The notes: generated by a model not told the origin, from the sequence alone. A stretch of 64,000 nucleotides of DNA from Vibrio sp. (GCA_028131545.1 JAOICL010000001.1:6661-70660); one strand, 5' to 3'. Shown: positions 10,729 through 18,191, counted from the first letter of the stretch. Program-made: numbers and translations.

Positions 10729-10756
10729 CTTGAATGTGGTATTATAACCCCCATTA
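10729..10756 (+). promoter_or_regulatory. sigma32 (RpoH) heat-shock promoter
   Basis: CTTGAA-N14-CCCCATTA, near-consensus (CTTGAA-N13/14-CCCCATnT), about 70 bp upstream of the DUF2760 start. Confidence 0.8.
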
Positions 10757-10823
10757 CTGACGCTAATGGCAAAGCCAGCAATCCATTGCTGCTCGACACA
10801 ACCCTATTAAAGAGAATTCATTA

Positions 10824-11456
10824 ATGAACTTTGATTTACAACTTGTACCTCAAACACTCGATATGTTCCACGCTGGTCTCGCTGCCGTCGCTGTGGTCTT
10901 CTTATTTATAGCAATGACTCGTAAACCTCAAACGATTGAAAAGATCGTTGAAAAGCCAGTCGAAAAGATTGTTGAGATTGAAAAAACAGTAGAAAAAATC
11001 GTTGAAGTTGAAAAGGTTGTTGAAGTTGAGAAAGTGATTGAGAAAGTCGTGGAAGTCGAGTCTAAAGTGACAACGGCATCGACGGATTCTGCAATGCAGT
11101 TATTATCACTGATGCAGCAAGAAGCGCGTCTCATCGACTTTTTACAAGAAGATTTAACGGGATTCTCCGATGATGAAGTCGGTGCAGCTGCACGTGTCAT
11201 TCATACTGGTGGTCAAAAAGTATTAAAAGATTATGTGACGTTATTGCATGTTCGCTCTGAAGAAGAAGAAACTCGAATCACCATTGCTGAAGGATTTAAC
11301 CCTCAAGAAGTTCGTTTAACCGGTAATGTGACGGGTTCTGCACCATTCACGGGTATTCTAATCCATAAAGGATGGAGAGCGGCTGAGGTTAAGTTACCAA
11401 AACTGGCTGAAAACTATGACGCATCAATTATTGCTCCTGCTGAGGTGGAACTGTAA
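10824..11456 (+). CDS. DUF2760-type membrane-anchored protein (putative GrpE-like)
   Basis: N-terminal hydrophobic helix; EKIVEV repeats; QLLSLMQQEARLIDFLQEDL and VRLTGNV..HKGWR..IIAPAEVEL motifs; stop overlaps the next ATG (TAATG). Confidence 0.85.
   Translation: MNFDLQLVPQTLDMFHAGLAAVAVVFLFIAMTRKPQTIEKIVEKPVEKIVEIEKTVEKIVEVEKVVEVEKVIEKVVEVESKVTTASTDSAMQLLSLMQQEARLIDFLQEDLTGFSDDEVGAAARVIHTGGQKVLKDYVTLLHVRSEEEETRITIAEGFNPQEVRLTGNVTGSAPFTGILIHKGWRAAEVKLPKLAENYDASIIAPAEVEL
10935..11060 (+). repeat. intragenic (I/V)EK(I/V)VE peptide repeat
   Basis: IEKIVEKPVEKIVEIEKTVEKIVEVEKVVEVEKVIEKVVEVE. Confidence 0.85.
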
Positions 11457-13357
11457 TGGATAATTCTTTACCTAAATTCAGTATTGGTATCGATTTAGGA
11501 ACAACACACTGTGTTTTATCCTATCTAGATACAACCAATGAAGACGCTCAAGTTCAAGTTATGGGTATTCCACAACTGACAACCCCGGGTAATGTTGAAG
11601 AAAATACGCAACTTAGCTCATTTTTATATCAACCACATGAAAATGAATTAGCCTCTGATACGCTAGTTCTACCATGGAGTGAAGAACCGAAAGCGCTAGT
11701 GGGTGCGATTGCACGTAATCTAGGTTCTAAAACACCGATTCGTTTAGTGTCGAGCGCAAAATCTTGGTTATGTCACAGTGAAATCAATCGTCGAGAGGCT
11801 TTTCTCCCTGCAGGTAGCCCTGAAGAAGTGACAAAAGTGTCTCCTTTGCGTGCCACTGAGTTATACCTAGAACACCTAAAGAACGCATGGAATCACCAAA
11901 ATCCTGAGCATACTCTTGAAGAGCAAGATGTCACGATTACCGTTCCTGCATCTTTTGATCCAGCTGCAAGAGATTTAACCGCTGAAGCCGCTCGTAACGT
12001 TGGCATGCAGCACCTAACTCTGCTTGAAGAGCCACAAGCGGCTTTGTACAACTGGATTGATAACCGCCAAGAAGCTTGGCGCGATGAAGTCGCAGTGGGT
12101 GACATTGTTCTCGTTGTTGATGTTGGTGGCGGTACTACGGATTTATCTCTTGTCGAAGTCACTGAAGACGAAGGTAATCTCGTGCTCAACCGTATTGCTG
12201 TTGGTGAGCATATTTTACTCGGCGGCGATAATATGGATTTAGCTCTCGCCTTCCGTCTCAAAGTCAAACTCGCAGAACAAGGTAAAGCGCTTCAACCTTG
12301 GCAAATACAAGCGATGACTCATGCTTGTCGAGATGCAAAAGAAGCACTATTAAATGATTCTGAGCTGCAATCGGTTCCGATTACTGTTCCTAGTCGTGGT
12401 TCAAAATTGCTTGGCGCTACATTAAAAACCGAATTAACGCAGGAAGAAGTTCAGCAAACCTTAGTGGATGGCTTTTTCCCTCAAGTGTCTATTTCAGATC
12501 ACCCAGTACAAAAGTCACGCGGTGCCCTCACTAAGATGGGACTACCTTATGCACAAGATGCTGGTATTACTCGTCATATTGCCGCTTTCTTATCAAAGCA
12601 AGCAAACGCGAATACAGATTCAGATTCATCAAATACTGACTATGACCCATTTGGCGGTATGTCGGGCATTCCGGGTATGGAAGAATCGACACCAACAGAT
12701 TTTATCAAGCCTACCGTGGTGTTATATAACGGCGGCGTTTTAAAATCGGATCTTTTAGCTAACCGCCTATCAGACACCATTAATCAATGGTTAACTGACG
12801 CAGAGGCCAAACCAGCAAAACGCTTAGAAGGTGTTGACCTTGATCTCGCGGTAGCCAGTGGCGCATCCTATTATGGATCAGTACGTCGTGGACAAGGCGT
12901 TCGTATACGTGGTGGTATTGCCTCTTCTTATTATGTTGGCATTGAAAGCGCAATGCCTGCCATCCCTGGAATGGCTATTCCTTTAGAAGCCATTTGTGTG
13001 GCTCCATTTGGTATGGAAGAAGGATCTCAAGTGACGGTTCCAAATCAAGAGTTTGGGTTAGTCATTGGCGAACCCGTTCACTTCCAATTCTATGGTTCGA
13101 CCGTTCGTCGTGACGATGAAGCGGGAGTGCATCTGGATTTTTGGAATGAAGGTGAACTTGAAGAGCTACCTGAAATTCACGCAACGTTGTCAGCGGAAGA
13201 TGGACGTAAGCAGGGAGACATTGTTCCTGTGACATTAGCTTCACGCGTTACAGAGCTTGGAACATTGCAATTAGAGGCCATCGCCTCCGACAATGGCCAA
13301 CGTTGGCATGTTGAATTCGATGTCCGTGAAGATACGCCATCGAGCGAAACTGAGTAA
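11456..13357 (+). CDS. atypical Hsp70/DnaK-family ATPase (copy 1)
   Basis: GIDLGTT, AKSWL, TVPASFD, EEPQAA, DVGGGTTDLS, LGGDNMD and NGG actin-like ATPase motifs. Confidence 0.9.
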   Translation: MDNSLPKFSIGIDLGTTHCVLSYLDTTNEDAQVQVMGIPQLTTPGNVEENTQLSSFLYQPHENELASDTLVLPWSEEPKALVGAIARNLGSKTPIRLVSSAKSWLCHSEINRREAFLPAGSPEEVTKVSPLRATELYLEHLKNAWNHQNPEHTLEEQDVTITVPASFDPAARDLTAEAARNVGMQHLTLLEEPQAALYNWIDNRQEAWRDEVAVGDIVLVVDVGGGTTDLSLVEVTEDEGNLVLNRIAVGEHILLGGDNMDLALAFRLKVKLAEQGKALQPWQIQAMTHACRDAKEALLNDSELQSVPITVPSRGSKLLGATLKTELTQEEVQQTLVDGFFPQVSISDHPVQKSRGALTKMGLPYAQDAGITRHIAAFLSKQANANTDSDSSNTDYDPFGGMSGIPGMEESTPTDFIKPTVVLYNGGVLKSDLLANRLSDTINQWLTDAEAKPAKRLEGVDLDLAVASGASYYGSVRRGQGVRIRGGIASSYYVGIESAMPAIPGMAIPLEAICVAPFGMEEGSQVTVPNQEFGLVIGEPVHFQFYGSTVRRDDEAGVHLDFWNEGELEELPEIHATLSAEDGRKQGDIVPVTLASRVTELGTLQLEAIASDNGQRWHVEFDVREDTPSSETE

Positions 13358-13370
13358 TTTCTTTTCTTTC

Positions 13371-13396
13371 AAGAGCAGCTATTCGCTGCTCTTTTT
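13371..13396 (+). terminator. intrinsic terminator-like hairpin between the two Hsp70 genes
   Basis: AAGAGCAGC-tattc-GCTGCTCTT followed by TTT. Confidence 0.65.
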
Positions 13397-13465
13397 CTAC
13401 ATATACGTTAATAGCGTATATACTCTTTTTACCTTATTCTTTGACATACAAGCAGACTGTTAACT

Positions 13466-16303
13466 ATGCCCTCACCTCGTTATCTTGTTGGTATTGATTT
13501 AGGAACTACCAATACCGTCGTTGCTTTTAGCGAAATCACTTCCGATCTAAAAACGGCTCCTGTCTCTATCTTTGAAATAGATCAGCTAATTGGCCCAGGT
13601 GAAGTAGTACGAAAGCCTCTACTTCCCTCTTTTCGCTATCACCCATTAGCCTCTCAATTTGATCGTTCTGATTTAACCCTTCCTTGGGGTGAATCGGTTT
13701 TAGAAGGTGATATTCATCAAGTCATTATCGGATCATGGGCAAGGGAATTAGGGTCTAAAGTCGAGGGGCGACAAATTGCCAGTGCAAAAAGCTGGTTATC
13801 CCATGAAGGTGTTGATAGAGAATCCGATATTTTGCCTTGGGCAGCGGCACAGGATGTAGAAAAAGTCTCTCCCGTTATCGCCAGTGCTAGCTATATCAAT
13901 CACATCAAACATTCTTGGAATCATCATAATCCAATCAATCGTTTAGAAGACCAAGATGTGGTCATTACGATTCCAGCTTCCTTTGATGAAACCGCTCGAT
14001 CATTAACCTTAAAAGCGGCAAATCAGGCTGGGTTACATAACATTGTCTTACTCGAAGAACCTCAAGCGGTTTGTTATGACTGGTACGCTAGGCATATAGA
14101 CCACGCGACTGAACAATTACAAGATATCCCATTAATACTGGTATGTGATGTGGGTGGTGGTACAACCGATCTCAGTTTGATTGAAGCCAGCTCTAAAGAT
14201 AATGCCTTAAAATTGAACCGAATTGGTGTTGGTGAGCACTTAATGCTAGGCGGTGATAATATTGACTTAGCATTGGCTCACTTAGCTGAGCAACGCTTTA
14301 GTAACACGAAAAAATTAAATGCGGCGAATCTCACCAAGTTAATTCAGCAAACGAGAAAAGCAAAAGAATTGCTTTTACAAGTTAACTCACCTGAGCAAGT
14401 TAAGATCACGATGTTAGGCAGTGGTTCAAAATTGTTAGGCGGTACAAGGAGTGTTGCTTTAGAAAAATCAGAAGCCAACAATATTATCTTCGATGGTTTC
14501 TTCCCCCTGTCTGATTTTAATGCTCTACCGGATACCCGACGTAGTGCCGTTGTCGAGTTTGGTTTGCCCTATGCTTCTGAGCCAGCTGTTAGTAAACATA
14601 TTGCGGCTTTTTTACATCAACATCAGCACGTTTCAGCCTCTGCGTTACAGGGTCACCAAGATGAGAAAACAGAGGAACCTGCTTTACCCGTCGGCTTATT
14701 GCTCAATGGGGGTGTTTTTAACAGTCCTTTAGTGACGGAACGGTTAGAAGAACTGCTAAAAAGCTGGAAAGGCACGCCTTGTACACTACTAGATAATCCT
14801 CATCCTGATTTATCTGTCGCTTTCGGCGCCGTCGCTTTTAATAAAGCAAGACGCGGTGCCGGTGTAAAAATTGGTGGCGGTAGCGCACGATCTTATTTCT
14901 TACATCTACCTGAAAAAAATAAGTTAGGTAAGGCTCTGTGCTTACTCGCTAAAGGAACAGAGGAAGGACAAGAAGTTCGCCTGACTGGCCGTCGATTTAA
15001 TCTAACGCTTGGTGAACCCGTTAAATTTAACTTATTGACGACCACACACGATACCTTAAATAATGATCAACGCATCCAAAATGGATTATTAGTGGATGTC
15101 GACCCTGATATATTCAAGGCGCTACCTCCTTATATATCCACTCTGGATAGCTTAGGAAAAGAGCTACAGGAAAATCAAAAAGAACGTATTGAAGTCACCT
15201 TAGCAAGCCAATTATCAGAAATCGGTACGCTAAAATTAGACTGTGTCTCAAATGAGTTCGATCAACATTCAAATAAAGACGTTGAACAGCGTTGGAATTT
15301 AGAGTTTGAAGTCAGGAACCAACAAGCCACGGAAGAAGCCGATGCAGAAGATAACCTGCCTCCACGCTTTAAAGAAGCGGCGGCGTTAATATCTCATTCG
15401 TATAGCGGTAATAAAAAAAATACGGATGTAAAAAGCATTAAAGCTCTGACCAAAGATATTGAAAAGCACATTGGTAAACGCGACAACTGGGATTTTAATA
15501 CCTCAAGGCAAATATTTGATACCTTAATGCTTGGGCGAAAGCGCCGTCGTCGCTCTACACATCATGAAAAGCAATGGTTGCGATTAGCTGGATTTACTCT
15601 ACGTCCTGGCTTTGGTTCACCTACAGATACTTGGCGTATTGAGCAGATTTGGTCTTTGTACAGTCAAGACATTCATTTCAAAGACCATCAAGGCTGGACG
15701 GATTGGTGGGTATGCTGGAGACGAATTGCTGGAGGCTTGAATCAAGAACAACAAGAAACCATTCTTTCTGATATTGCAAAGTACTTGCACCCTGGAGCAA
15801 TGAAAAGTCAGCAATCAGCGAAAGCCGCTCATGAGATTGGTTATGAATCAATGGTAAGGCTCGCGGCATCATTAGAGCACCTTGATATCGAAGATAAAAC
15901 TCTGTTATCAAATTGGTTTATGAATAAAGCGCAAACCGGTAAACAATTTAAACAAGCACATTGGTGGGCATTAGGCCGACTTGCCTCTCGTAGCATGTTA
16001 TATAGCGGTAATAACACGGTCATACCAAGAGCGCAGGTTGAACAATGGTTACCGACTGTATTACAACAAGATTGGAAAGACGAACCCATGGCTGGCTTTG
16101 CTGCCGTCATGATGTCGAGAATGACGGGCGATCGTACTCTGGATATTTCAGATGACATCCGTAATCACATCATCAAAAAATTGAAAGAGAGCAAAGTTCC
16201 ACAATCTTGGATAGAAATGGTTTCTGAAGTCAAAGAGCTCGATAATCAAGAAGCTCAAAAGATTTTTGGTGATACAATTCCGGCAGGGTTGATTTTACTT
16301 TAA
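13466..16303 (+). CDS. atypical Hsp70/DnaK-family ATPase with C-terminal extension (DUF3731-type)
   Basis: GIDLGTTN, TIPASFD, EEPQA, DVGGGTTDLS and LGGDNID motifs, plus about 300 aa of W/R-rich helical tail (WLRLAGFTLRPGFG, WWALGRL). Confidence 0.9.
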   Translation: MPSPRYLVGIDLGTTNTVVAFSEITSDLKTAPVSIFEIDQLIGPGEVVRKPLLPSFRYHPLASQFDRSDLTLPWGESVLEGDIHQVIIGSWARELGSKVEGRQIASAKSWLSHEGVDRESDILPWAAAQDVEKVSPVIASASYINHIKHSWNHHNPINRLEDQDVVITIPASFDETARSLTLKAANQAGLHNIVLLEEPQAVCYDWYARHIDHATEQLQDIPLILVCDVGGGTTDLSLIEASSKDNALKLNRIGVGEHLMLGGDNIDLALAHLAEQRFSNTKKLNAANLTKLIQQTRKAKELLLQVNSPEQVKITMLGSGSKLLGGTRSVALEKSEANNIIFDGFFPLSDFNALPDTRRSAVVEFGLPYASEPAVSKHIAAFLHQHQHVSASALQGHQDEKTEEPALPVGLLLNGGVFNSPLVTERLEELLKSWKGTPCTLLDNPHPDLSVAFGAVAFNKARRGAGVKIGGGSARSYFLHLPEKNKLGKALCLLAKGTEEGQEVRLTGRRFNLTLGEPVKFNLLTTTHDTLNNDQRIQNGLLVDVDPDIFKALPPYISTLDSLGKELQENQKERIEVTLASQLSEIGTLKLDCVSNEFDQHSNKDVEQRWNLEFEVRNQQATEEADAEDNLPPRFKEAAALISHSYSGNKKNTDVKSIKALTKDIEKHIGKRDNWDFNTSRQIFDTLMLGRKRRRRSTHHEKQWLRLAGFTLRPGFGSPTDTWRIEQIWSLYSQDIHFKDHQGWTDWWVCWRRIAGGLNQEQQETILSDIAKYLHPGAMKSQQSAKAAHEIGYESMVRLAASLEHLDIEDKTLLSNWFMNKAQTGKQFKQAHWWALGRLASRSMLYSGNNTVIPRAQVEQWLPTVLQQDWKDEPMAGFAAVMMSRMTGDRTLDISDDIRNHIIKKLKESKVPQSWIEMVSEVKELDNQEAQKIFGDTIPAGLILL

Positions 16304-16969: not shown

Positions 16970-17024
16970 AAAGAATAGATAATAAAAAAGCGCCTTATAG
17001 GCGCTTTTTTATTATCTATTCTTT
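16970..17024. terminator. bidirectional terminator, 26-bp perfect inverted repeat
   Basis: aaagaatagataataaaaaagcgcct-tat-aggcgcttttttattatctattcttt. Confidence 0.85.
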
Positions 17025-17642: not shown

Positions 17643-18191
17643 ATGAACCAAGATAAATTTACCAATATATATCGTCTTCCAGGGTCAATACAGATTCGCA
17701 TCGGAAAGTGGCAGCAAACATTCCGTGGCACATCGGATCTCGTCCTGCATAATGCGATTCAGGTACGTAATCAGCAATTTAAACAATTCAATTTTTTACC
17801 AAAGGGATGGTGCGTAACTCCGTTCCTTGAAACTGATATCTCGATTACACATCATGATAAATACATCCAAACCGCAATGAGAACTCTCATTGACCGTAAA
17901 GTGTCCTATAAGCGAGTGTATTTATCACGAGTGCCATTAGAAGAAGCTGAGCCTCTGCTGAGAAGATATAAAGAAGAGTGGATAAGGAAACACAATCGAG
18001 TGGCAAAACAGTATAATCAGATCAAGAAAAAAGAGCTTCTCTTTCATGCTCGAGAAGAACAAGAAACATTATACCCTTCAATACCAGTACAAAAGTTTGA
18101 TAAGACTTTATGGAATAAACTCGTCGTGTCAGATTTTGGTCCCGCTAAAAAATATTCGAACCCGTATTTTGTGAAAAAATCTGATTTCTAA
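17643..18191 (+). CDS. basic conserved Vibrio protein, putative DNA-binding regulator
   Basis: 182 aa K/R-rich ORF with a long AT-rich upstream region; the N-terminal beta-beta-beta-alpha pattern is AP2-like by eye. Confidence 0.7.
   Translation: MNQDKFTNIYRLPGSIQIRIGKWQQTFRGTSDLVLHNAIQVRNQQFKQFNFLPKGWCVTPFLETDISITHHDKYIQTAMRTLIDRKVSYKRVYLSRVPLEEAEPLLRRYKEEWIRKHNRVAKQYNQIKKKELLFHAREEQETLYPSIPVQKFDKTLWNKLVVSDFGPAKKYSNPYFVKKSDF

What the first reader, a model, noticed from the sequence alone, without database searches (positions are those of the whole stretch)
10729..16303. Candidate undescribed chaperone machine: sigma32 promoter, membrane-anchored DUF2760 and two atypical Hsp70s, no J-protein
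Seen: a near-consensus RpoH promoter (CTTGAA-N14-CCCCATTA) and translational coupling (TAATG) of DUF2760 to Hsp70-1. Both Hsp70s keep catalytic residues equivalent to DnaK D8, K70, E171, D194 and T199. Both replace the DVLLLD interdomain linker with GV(R/K)IxGG. They share private motifs (SAKSWL, RIxVGEHxxLGGDN, GLPYAxxxxxxxH, NGGV, RWxxEFxVR), so they are paralogues of a distinct clade. No HPD-containing J-domain gene lies nearby. Established: canonical Hsp70s need the hydrophobic linker and a J-protein for allosteric activation. Inference: a dedicated, possibly heterodimeric and J-independent Hsp70 system tethered to the inner membrane and acting under heat stress on an unknown client. The gene trio is conserved in other bacteria, but I know of no characterised function.
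Basis: partly seen in the sequence, partly recalled or inferred. Interest (0 to 1): 0.8.

Follow-up and report, generated by a model that had tools for sequence, protein, structure and literature searches.

The report
Membrane-tethered twin lidless Hsp70 module
Three adjacent genes, a small predicted membrane-anchored protein and two Hsp70-type ATPases that lack the usual linker and lid, travel together in many bacteria and likely form a dedicated protein-remodelling machine whose client and mechanism are untested.

Summary
DUF2760 (10824-11456) overlaps Hsp70-1 by TAATG, and Hsp70-2 with DUF3731 follows. ATP-site residues are invariant in both families and DVLLLD is absent. The predicted fold is an Hsp70 ATPase domain plus a docked beta substrate domain; Hsp70-1 has no lid and Hsp70-2 has a 310-residue helical domain instead. 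The two domains of unknown function co-occur in 28 of 29 positive genomes among 401 sampled. DUF2760 is in 77 of 78 same-genus genomes.

A terminator-like hairpin separates the two Hsp70 genes. The GV(R/K)IxGG linker is general only for Hsp70-1. J-independence is inferred, since J-proteins lie elsewhere in the genome.

It is not undescribed: both domains are in Pfam, and the M. xanthus Hsp70-2 counterpart (MXAN_5323) has been deleted, with mild sporulation and peroxide defects and no dnaK rescue. No mechanism turned up in my searches. This scan noted the same trio in other genomes (8 earlier notes). Verdict: a real, widespread, mechanistically open Hsp70 variant.

The parts
10729..10756 (+). 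sigma32-type promoter candidate: -35 CTTGAA, 14-nt spacer, -10 CCCCATTA; predicted start near 10762-10764
   Evidence: Sequence. Among 56 distinct sites from 71 of 80 upstream regions: TTGA in 50, exact CTTGAA in 37, and a -10 of the form CCCnATnT one base further on (C10750 53, A10754 54, T10755 49, T10757 49). A near-strict form precedes 10 genes in this genome, among them dnaK and three that I read as clpB, htpG and hslV from recalled N-termini.
10737..10745 (+). extended -10 element (TG-n-TATTAT) of sigma70/sigmaS type, nested in the spacer of the sigma32 site; predicted start near 10752-10754
   Evidence: TGnTAnnnT in 55 of 56 distinct sites, the best conserved part of the region. Use by sigma70 or sigmaS is inferred.
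10824..11456 (+). DUF2760 protein, 210 aa: predicted single N-out membrane helix (residues 14-32), charged V/E/K repeat stalk (about 35-80), conserved cytoplasmic domain (81-210) of two helices and a small beta region
   Evidence: PF10816 E 2e-53; hydropathy 2.19, 79 of 79 Vibrionaceae at 1.6 or more; AlphaFold2 of residues 81-210 pLDDT 95.8; R124, H127, D105, F106, E148, H181, W184 in 150 of 150.
11454..11458 (+). TAATG stop-start overlap coupling DUF2760 to Hsp70-1
   Evidence: stop-start overlap in 77 of 80 Vibrionaceae loci and 62 of 72 other loci.
11456..13357 (+). Hsp70-1, 633 aa: ATPase domain, non-canonical linker, beta substrate-domain homologue, no lid
   Evidence: PF00012, far below the DnaK and HscA cut-offs; ends 4-19 residues after the last conserved strand in 140 of 143 rows; its beta domain matches that of Hsp70-2 (hhalign probability 99.8). 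Not folded itself.
13371..13398 (+). 9-bp hairpin with T tail between the two Hsp70 genes, terminator-like or RNA-stabilising
   Evidence: Sequence; a hairpin plus T-rich tail in 72 of 78 Vibrionaceae loci with differing stem sequences, and 4 of 56 other loci. The consensus scan did not list it.
13466..16303 (+). Hsp70-2, 945 aa: ATPase domain (1-465), linker, beta domain (476-615), flexible joint, all-helical basic C-terminal domain (635-945, DUF3731) where the lid would be
   Evidence: PF00012 and PF12531 E 1.8e-96; AlphaFold2 pLDDT 88.7, pTM 0.84; best match ATP-bound BiP 5e84, Z 33.5, rmsd 3.9, 474 residues, model 1-616; ATP-state DnaK 4b9q tops Foldseek.

Best explanation
The three genes are a co-inherited module of a predicted membrane-anchored DUF2760 protein and two Hsp70-type proteins with intact ATP sites, which likely work together as a dedicated ATP-driven remodeller of a specific, unknown client at the inner face of the cell membrane. 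Inferred steps: DUF2760, made 1:1 with Hsp70-1, would hold the ATPases at the membrane on a flexible stalk and control their nucleotide cycle in place of the usual DnaJ/GrpE helpers. The beta domain would dock on the ATP-bound ATPase domain through the new [RK]IxxG linker and grip clients only briefly, as there is no lid. The helical DUF3731 domain of Hsp70-2 would pick the client or partner. In Vibrio the operon likely has basal sigma70-type expression plus a sigma32 boost, and the internal hairpin would lower Hsp70-2 relative to the first two proteins. It is an auxiliary system, not a DnaK substitute.
For: Co-inheritance: DUF3731 in 28 of the 29 DUF2760-positive genomes and in none of the other 372; Hsp70-1 follows DUF2760 in 71 of 71 metagenome loci with room, DUF3731 in 34 of 35; no other neighbour recurs outside Vibrio. 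ATP-site residues invariant. Fold matches ATP-state Hsp70 including the beta domain. Several DnaK positions that I recall as J-contact or allosteric residues are changed: Y145 to S, N147 to D and N170 to E in all 245 rows, T173 mostly to Q, K155 lost, R167 lost in Hsp70-1. No J-domain hit in 180 loci, GrpE in 1. N-terminal membrane-type segment in most relatives, though of different kinds. M. xanthus MXAN_5323 does not rescue E. coli dnaK and its loss gives mild sporulation and peroxide defects (PMC8265645).
Against: No binding or activity is shown for any pair. The trio is not always contiguous: Hsp70-2 is adjacent in 16 of 20 non-Vibrio loci, split off in 3, untestable in 1, and absent from the fetched flank in L256 and L267. 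15 of 150 distant DUF2760 relatives have no hydrophobic stretch and 39 only an intermediate one. R167 is kept in 86 of 102 Hsp70-2 rows and R151 in 140 of 143 Hsp70-1 rows, so trans-acting J-proteins are not excluded. My J profile was narrow: it missed two J-domain genes that Pfam finds in this genome. The beta domain has no detectable sequence likeness to that of DnaK (two-sequence template), so peptide binding is unproven.
Confidence: 0.45

Rival explanations
1. Hsp110-like co-chaperone pair: one Hsp70 acts as nucleotide exchange factor for the other, or both act on DnaK through ATPase-domain contacts, and DUF2760 is only a tether.
For: Proposed in general for bacterial DnaK derivatives (PMC13580251, sections 6 and 9). 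HSP110 and Sse1 are among the top structural matches (Z 32.4 and 29.5). Probable sigma32 co-control with dnaK in Vibrio; one plasmid copy lies beside groES-groEL.
Against: Both paralogues keep all catalytic residues checked. DUF2760 has 25 positions at 90% or more conservation, including two invariant histidines, more than a passive tether should need. No physical link to dnaK except L188.
Confidence: 0.2
2. An ordinary J-dependent specialist Hsp70 system like HscA or HscC, served by J-proteins encoded elsewhere (DnaJ, a CbpA-like or DjlA-like protein) and by GrpE.
For: J-domain genes exist elsewhere in the genome. The nine non-Vibrio trio carriers searched all have a standard GrpE. R167 is kept in most Hsp70-2 rows.
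Against: The hydrophobic linker, recalled as needed for J stimulation, is absent in 245 of 245 rows. No linked J gene in 180 loci, unlike hscB-hscA (adjacent in this genome).
Confidence: 0.15
3. Not a chaperone: a membrane-anchored actin-fold scaffold or signalling switch (in the manner of PilM, FtsA, MreB or BeeR) built from Hsp70 parts.
For: The invariant EEP motif replaces DnaK NEP, as I recall in MreB; weak MreB and BeeR profile hits; no lid; partner on a stalk; heat induction weak in M. xanthus.
Against: Hsp70/Hsp110 structures outrank BeeR and MreB (Z 33.5 against 27.8 and 27.4) and the Hsp70 beta domain is kept.
Confidence: 0.15
4. Anti-phage defence system.
For: Patchy spread outside Vibrionaceae; one plasmid copy lies among annotated anti-phage genes; weak PADLOC hit PDC-M61B on the ATPase domain (E 3e-6 and 6e-5).
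Against: Single match per genome, present in 77 of 78 same-genus genomes, with a conserved upstream exonuclease neighbour in 77 of 80 loci; the PADLOC hit covers about 90 residues of the generic Hsp70 core.
Confidence: 0.05

Closest known systems
Pfam DUF2760 (PF10816) / Hsp70-family / Hsp70-DUF3731 (PF12531) cassette; M. xanthus MXAN_5321-5323; V. cholerae VC1375-VC1373
   Same: Same domains, order and sizes (MXAN: DUF2760 208 aa, Hsp70 620 aa, hsp70 925 aa, adjacent, same strand; PMC8265645 supplement). VC1373-1375 is listed as one operon with DnaK-related proteins (PMC9201469, PMC5816637); the match to this trio rests on those names and on synteny, not on an alignment.
   Different: Nothing essential: this is a member. 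Only MXAN_5323 has been deleted; no biochemistry was found. The dual promoter and internal hairpin were seen in Vibrionaceae only.
DnaK-DnaJ-GrpE
   Same: ATPase fold, catalytic residues, predicted docked beta substrate domain, probable sigma32 input in Vibrio.
   Different: No DVLLLD linker, no lid, altered positions around the recalled J-contact surface, no linked J or GrpE gene, two paralogues, scores of 51-57 bits against cut-offs of 648 and 822; MXAN_5323 does not rescue dnaK.
HscA-HscB and HscC-DjlB/DjlC specialist Hsp70 systems (HscC partners recalled)
   Same: Dedicated Hsp70 with a linked partner gene; HscC partners are membrane anchored.
   Different: The partner here has no J-domain or HPD; HscA profiles score 74-81 bits against cut-offs of 620 and 709; separate branch in the tree.
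GrpE nucleotide exchange factor (for DUF2760)
   Same: Order helix-loop-helix then small beta region; collinear look-alike motifs (F[DN]P, [HQ]KG[WY], xPAxV at the very C-terminus); human GrpEL1 is rank 10 in Foldseek (E 2.1, TM 0.21).
   Different: No PF01025 hit; profile-profile probability 0.1-1.7, no better than controls; structural overlap only on the helical hairpin (Z 3.5, rmsd 5.5, 52 residues); no long coiled coil; the GrpE arginine of RPA is not kept.
Eukaryotic Hsp70-Hsp110 pair
   Same: Two diverged Hsp70 paralogues with altered linker, possibly acting on each other.
   Different: Both keep catalytic residues; no lid helices; third, membrane-type partner; no complex shown.

Membership tests
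DUF2760 / Hsp70 / Hsp70-DUF3731 cassette | PF10816, PF00012, PF00012+PF12531 in this order on one strand | tested here: met
Hsp70 superfamily | Actin-like ATPase domain of Hsp70 type with catalytic D8, K70, E171, D194, T199 equivalents | tested here: met
Hsp70 superfamily | Beta-sandwich substrate-binding domain after the linker | tested here: met
   Predicted fold of Hsp70-2 aligns over residues 1-616 with BiP 24-527; Hsp70-1 by homology. Not detectable by sequence against DnaK.
Hsp70 superfamily | ATP-controlled peptide binding | not testable with these tools
   Needs biochemistry
Canonical DnaK | DVLLLD interdomain linker | tested here: not met
   0 of 143 and 0 of 102
Canonical DnaK | Helical lid after the beta domain | tested here: not met
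   Hsp70-1 ends after the last strand; Hsp70-2 carries DUF3731 there
Canonical DnaK | NCBIfam PRK00290 / TIGR02350 cut-off | tested here: not met
   51-57 bits against 648 and 822.55
HscA / HscC systems | Profile cut-off and a linked J-domain gene | tested here: not met
   HscA 74-81 bits against 620 and 708.55; no J hit in 180 loci with a narrow profile
GrpE (DUF2760) | Sequence or profile similarity to PF01025 | tested here: not met
GrpE (DUF2760) | GrpE fold (helical hairpin plus beta domain) | tested here: inconclusive
   Foldseek rank 10, E 2.1; VIA Z 3.5 on helices only; the beta region was not folded alone
GrpE (DUF2760) | Dimer that binds the ATPase domain and releases ADP | not tested
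J-domain protein (DUF2760) | J-domain with HPD motif | tested here: not met
   No PF00226 hit; no HPD in the sequence
Hsp110-type exchange pair | ATPase-domain heterodimer with nucleotide exchange | not tested
   No complex job was run
sigma32 promoter | CTTGAA, 13-15 nt, CCCCATnT, conserved in relatives | tested here: met
   Window: CTTGAA-14-CCCCAT exact, last T not matched; relatives mostly CTTGAA-15-CCCnATnT; 9 of 80 upstream regions lack a good site
sigma32 promoter | RpoH-dependent transcription start | not testable with these tools
   No RNA run listed; the V. cholerae rpoH and start-site papers were not held under the ids tried
Anti-phage defence systems (PADLOC) | Match of the genes to a defence-system model set | tested here: inconclusive
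   Only a 90-residue weak hit on the Hsp70 core; nothing for DUF2760

The most novel reading that the evidence does not exclude
A J-protein-free bacterial Hsp70 machine: DUF2760 is a membrane-tethered cofactor, either of a fold not yet solved or a GrpE descendant diverged beyond recognition, that alone drives a heterodimer of two lidless Hsp70s, with DUF3731 as built-in client adaptor. It would be a core but unstudied arm of protein quality control in Vibrio.
Probability: 0.2. Interest if true: 0.8.

Novelty: new variant of a known kind. Interest (0 to 1): 0.5.

Why it matters
Textbook Hsp70s need a J-protein, the hydrophobic linker and a lid. A 2026 review calls the bacterial DnaK derivatives unexplored 'dark matter' and asks what they do (PMC13580251). 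This trio is a compact, widespread case (2018 DUF2760 clusters at 50% identity; near-universal in the genus) with a candidate cofactor encoded alongside. Three purified proteins are enough to test whether an Hsp70 can cycle without a J-domain. The family is catalogued and was flagged by this scan before, so the value lies in the test, not in the discovery of the genes.

Tried and rejected
Complex prediction (DUF2760 dimer with Hsp70-1) was not available: nothing was folded, so no binding verdict exists.

GrpE hypothesis (my 60% guess): hhalign with 29 GrpEs gave probability 0.1 and score 9.8 against 12.7 +/- 1.9 for 60 block shuffles. With 42 more varied GrpEs it gave probability 0.7 (1.7 for the C-terminal part), score 15.0 against 15.3 +/- 6.1 (max 28.2) for 31 unrelated windows. 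Lowered to a remote possibility.

DUF2760 fold searches: best Z 5.0 among 48,161 chains, no Foldseek match at E 0.001 in PDB or BFVD, PDB sequence search best E 0.42, Atlas no usable hit. These blanks do not show a new fold. DUF3731: PDB sequence search best E 1.6; the three Atlas structure rows shown are all DUF3731; no internal repeat by hhalign; it was not folded alone.

No relative confirmed among 358 pattern hits in viral contigs; 11 of 72,556 plasmid records match, several of them multi-megabase. No RNA holder was listed.

Papers: 0 hits for DUF2760 and DUF3731; the search with PF10816, PF12531, 'DNA-K related protein', 'DUF 2760', MXAN_5322, MXAN_5323 gave only PMC8265645. VC1374 in PMC11395875 is a strain name. 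Supplements of PMC12909929, PMC8559950 and PMC10848872 had no VC1373-75 rows; that of PMC4618957 gave no identifiable trio gene. In PMC10328515, 11 supplement files were unreadable pictures and 15 were not searched; they may show which direction the HapR-activated 'VC1375 promoter' faces. The listed start is on the + strand, which I read as the divergent VC1376, so I did not use it as evidence. The careful tree did not finish; the quick tree is quoted. L224 was dropped from the paired alignments because the script had picked a truncated Hsp70-2.
Full report
OBSERVATION. The region holds three co-directional ORFs: 10824-11456 (210 aa), 11456-13357 (633 aa) and 13466-16303 (945 aa). Pfam assigns DUF2760, Hsp70, and Hsp70 plus DUF3731. 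Both Hsp70s score far under the DnaK and HscA cut-offs. The promoter string, the TAATG overlap, the catalytic residues, the changed linker and the shared motifs are as described. The closest relatives are Vibrio species at up to about 82% identity.

CO-INHERITANCE. In an even sample of 401 genomes of the phylum, 29 have DUF2760 and 28 have DUF3731, all 28 among the 29; the exception has its contig end just after Hsp70-1. Kin are not independent, but the positives span six families. In 20 non-Vibrio loci Hsp70-1 always follows DUF2760; Hsp70-2 is adjacent in 16, split off in 3 and untestable in 1, and no other neighbour recurs widely. In 80 metagenome loci, Hsp70-1 follows in 71 of 71 with room and DUF3731 in 34 of 35. 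DUF2760 is in 77 of 78 same-genus and 163 of 200 same-family genomes and in 2018 clusters at 50% identity. Source names reach Magnetococcales, Rhodospirillales, Terrimicrobiaceae and Myxococcota. A quick tree of 57 rows puts all 45 Hsp70-1 and Hsp70-2 rows on one side of a long branch (SH-aLRT 99) away from DnaK, HscA, YegD and MreB; Hsp70-1 is one group (100), Hsp70-2 is unresolved, and the tool warns of long branches.

PROTEINS. AlphaFold2 on a 102-row alignment models Hsp70-2 with pLDDT 88.7. Residues 1-616 align with ATP-bound BiP (Z 33.5, rmsd 3.9, 474 residues) and ATP-state DnaK leads Foldseek, so a beta substrate domain is predicted and docked although its sequence no longer resembles DnaK's. 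Residues 635-945 are all-helical and basic (median net charge +8) with no relative found outside DUF3731. Hsp70-1 was not folded; its beta domain matches that of Hsp70-2 and the chain ends right after it, so it has no lid. Catalytic positions are invariant, while Y145, N147 and N170 are replaced in all 245 rows and T173 and K155 in nearly all; R151 is kept in Hsp70-1 and R167 in most Hsp70-2 (the roles of these residues are recalled). DUF2760 has a hydrophobic helix at 14-32 followed by RK, which fits an N-out anchor with a cytoplasmic body (topology inferred). All 79 Vibrionaceae have it; among 150 distant relatives 81 have a membrane-like stretch, 39 an intermediate one, 15 none and 15 are partial. 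Its C-terminal domain folds with pLDDT 95.8 and has no clear match among solved structures.

IS DUF2760 A GRPE? This was my first guess, from three collinear motifs ending at the C-terminus. Profile comparison reproduces the collinear alignment but scores no better than controls. GrpEL1 is rank 10 of 327 Foldseek rows at E 2.1, and on a second look only the helical hairpin overlaps (Z 3.5). Sequence membership is not met and the fold test is inconclusive. Earlier notes of this scan came to the same view. A cofactor role remains an inference from coupling and conservation.

J-PROTEINS. A profile from three J-domains found none in the window or in 180 loci (2.6 Mb), and a GrpE profile found one. 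The profile missed two J genes that Pfam finds in this genome, so it is not exhaustive, and trans-acting J-proteins exist. J-independence is therefore inferred from the linker and surface changes, not shown.

REGULATION. The strict sigma32 pattern occurs 3 times in the assembly against 1.3 expected; the other two copies are not in front of genes. A near-strict pattern precedes 10 genes, including dnaK and three that I read as clpB, htpG and hslV. A profile seeded on the window site found good sites in 71 of 80 upstream regions, 56 distinct (related species, and seeded, so partly circular). Both sigma32 boxes are conserved, the -10 mostly as CCCnATnT at spacing 15. The best conserved bases, however, are TGnTAnnnT (55 of 56) inside the spacer, a sigma70-family extended -10. 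A nested dual promoter is the simplest reading. No such motif was found before DUF2760 in 20 non-Vibrio loci. Stop-start overlap of DUF2760 and Hsp70-1 holds in 139 of 152 loci, while a hairpin with T tail lies before Hsp70-2 in 72 of 78 Vibrionaceae loci but only 4 of 56 others, so in Vibrio the third gene is likely expressed at a different level.

LITERATURE. PMC8265645 (parts 1-3 of 6, passages, supplement rows): MXAN_5321 is annotated DUF2760, followed by Hsp70s of 620 and 925 aa; heat shock changes them 1.16x, 1.66x and 0.67x; deleting MXAN_5323 lowers sporulation and peroxide survival, has no heat, cold or osmotic effect, and the gene does not rescue E. coli dnaK; similar defects were seen for the other deleted Hsp70s, so they are not specific. 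I did not align MXAN_5323. PMC13580251 (abstract, sections 6 and 9) calls such derivatives unexplored and proposes Hsp110-like roles. Passages only: PMC9201469 lists operon VC1373-1375 among biofilm-repressed genes; PMC5816637 has VC1373 down in the ribD comparison with dnaK, dnaJ, clpB, ibpA, htpX and groES/EL among 177 changed genes; PMC5636140 has VC1374 lower in a two-component mutant comparison; PMC3706606 detects a 'DnaK-related protein' in Photobacterium whose identity I did not check; PMC10328515 (passages, section 6) reports HapR activation at VC1375/VC1376 of unclear direction. The VC assignment rests on these names and on flanking GGDEF genes in L012 and L019 (that VC1376 and VC1372 are GGDEF genes is recalled). 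Searches for the domain names gave nothing; most subscription papers are not in the library.

MECHANISM AND VERDICT. Shown: gene content, coupling, co-inheritance, intact ATP sites, loss of linker and lid, conserved promoter elements. Predicted: folds and membrane anchor. Inferred: physical complex, cofactor role of DUF2760, client selection by DUF3731, sigma32 use. The best reading (0.45) is a dedicated membrane-tethered remodeller auxiliary to DnaK; rivals are an Hsp110-like pair (0.2), a J-dependent specialist (0.15), an actin-like scaffold (0.15) and defence (0.05). It is a member of a catalogued cassette and a variant of Hsp70 systems with no known mechanism. The scan has noted it in other genomes, not in this one. 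Interest 0.5.

Noticed in passing
G000:C97:1138-3030 (outside the window): The genome's own dnaK reading frame starts MGNTNSC and lacks about nine residues that carry the GIDLG phosphate motif; an assembly slip or a real in-frame deletion. No grpE was found in this 73% complete assembly.
   Followed up: no
window 10930-11060: The DUF2760 stalk is a run of EKIVE/VEVEK repeats; in many betaproteobacterial-type relatives it is an Ala-Pro run instead. It recalls the EKIVEVP repeats of membrane-skeleton proteins (recalled, untested).
   Followed up: no
L266 (Bradyrhizobium plasmid NZ_CP121651.1), 8752-17263: The trio lies about 1 kb upstream of groES-groEL on a conjugative plasmid; a second Bradyrhizobium plasmid has it beside trb genes.
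   Followed up: no
L267 (Thiodictyon plasmid NZ_CP020372.1), 8707-11225: DUF2760 and Hsp70-1 without Hsp70-2 in the 18-kb flank, among annotated anti-phage and TIR genes.
   Followed up: no
window 16975-17019: Perfect 20-bp inverted repeat with T tails on both strands, in a 1.3-kb stretch without an ORF over 80 aa between Hsp70-2 and an MSHA operon regulator homologue at 17643-18191.
   Followed up: no
family sample: DUF2760 is all-or-none by genus within the family: 77/78, 64/64 and 14/15 in three genera, 0/22 and 0/8 in two others. A comparison of those lineages could point to the client.
   Followed up: no
L188, L269-L272: A divergent second GrpE type (LDPxxM, RxAEV) in several genomes, in L188 next to a divergent DnaK and the trio.
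   Followed up: partly
PMC8265645: The text names MXAN_5323 as an exception to 'unchanged or decreased' on heat shock, but its supplement row falls to 0.67x while the MXAN_5322 row rises 1.66x.
   Followed up: no
L064, 12611-15456: Hsp70-2 is in two ORFs (554 and 356 aa) in this one Vibrio assembly.
   Followed up: no
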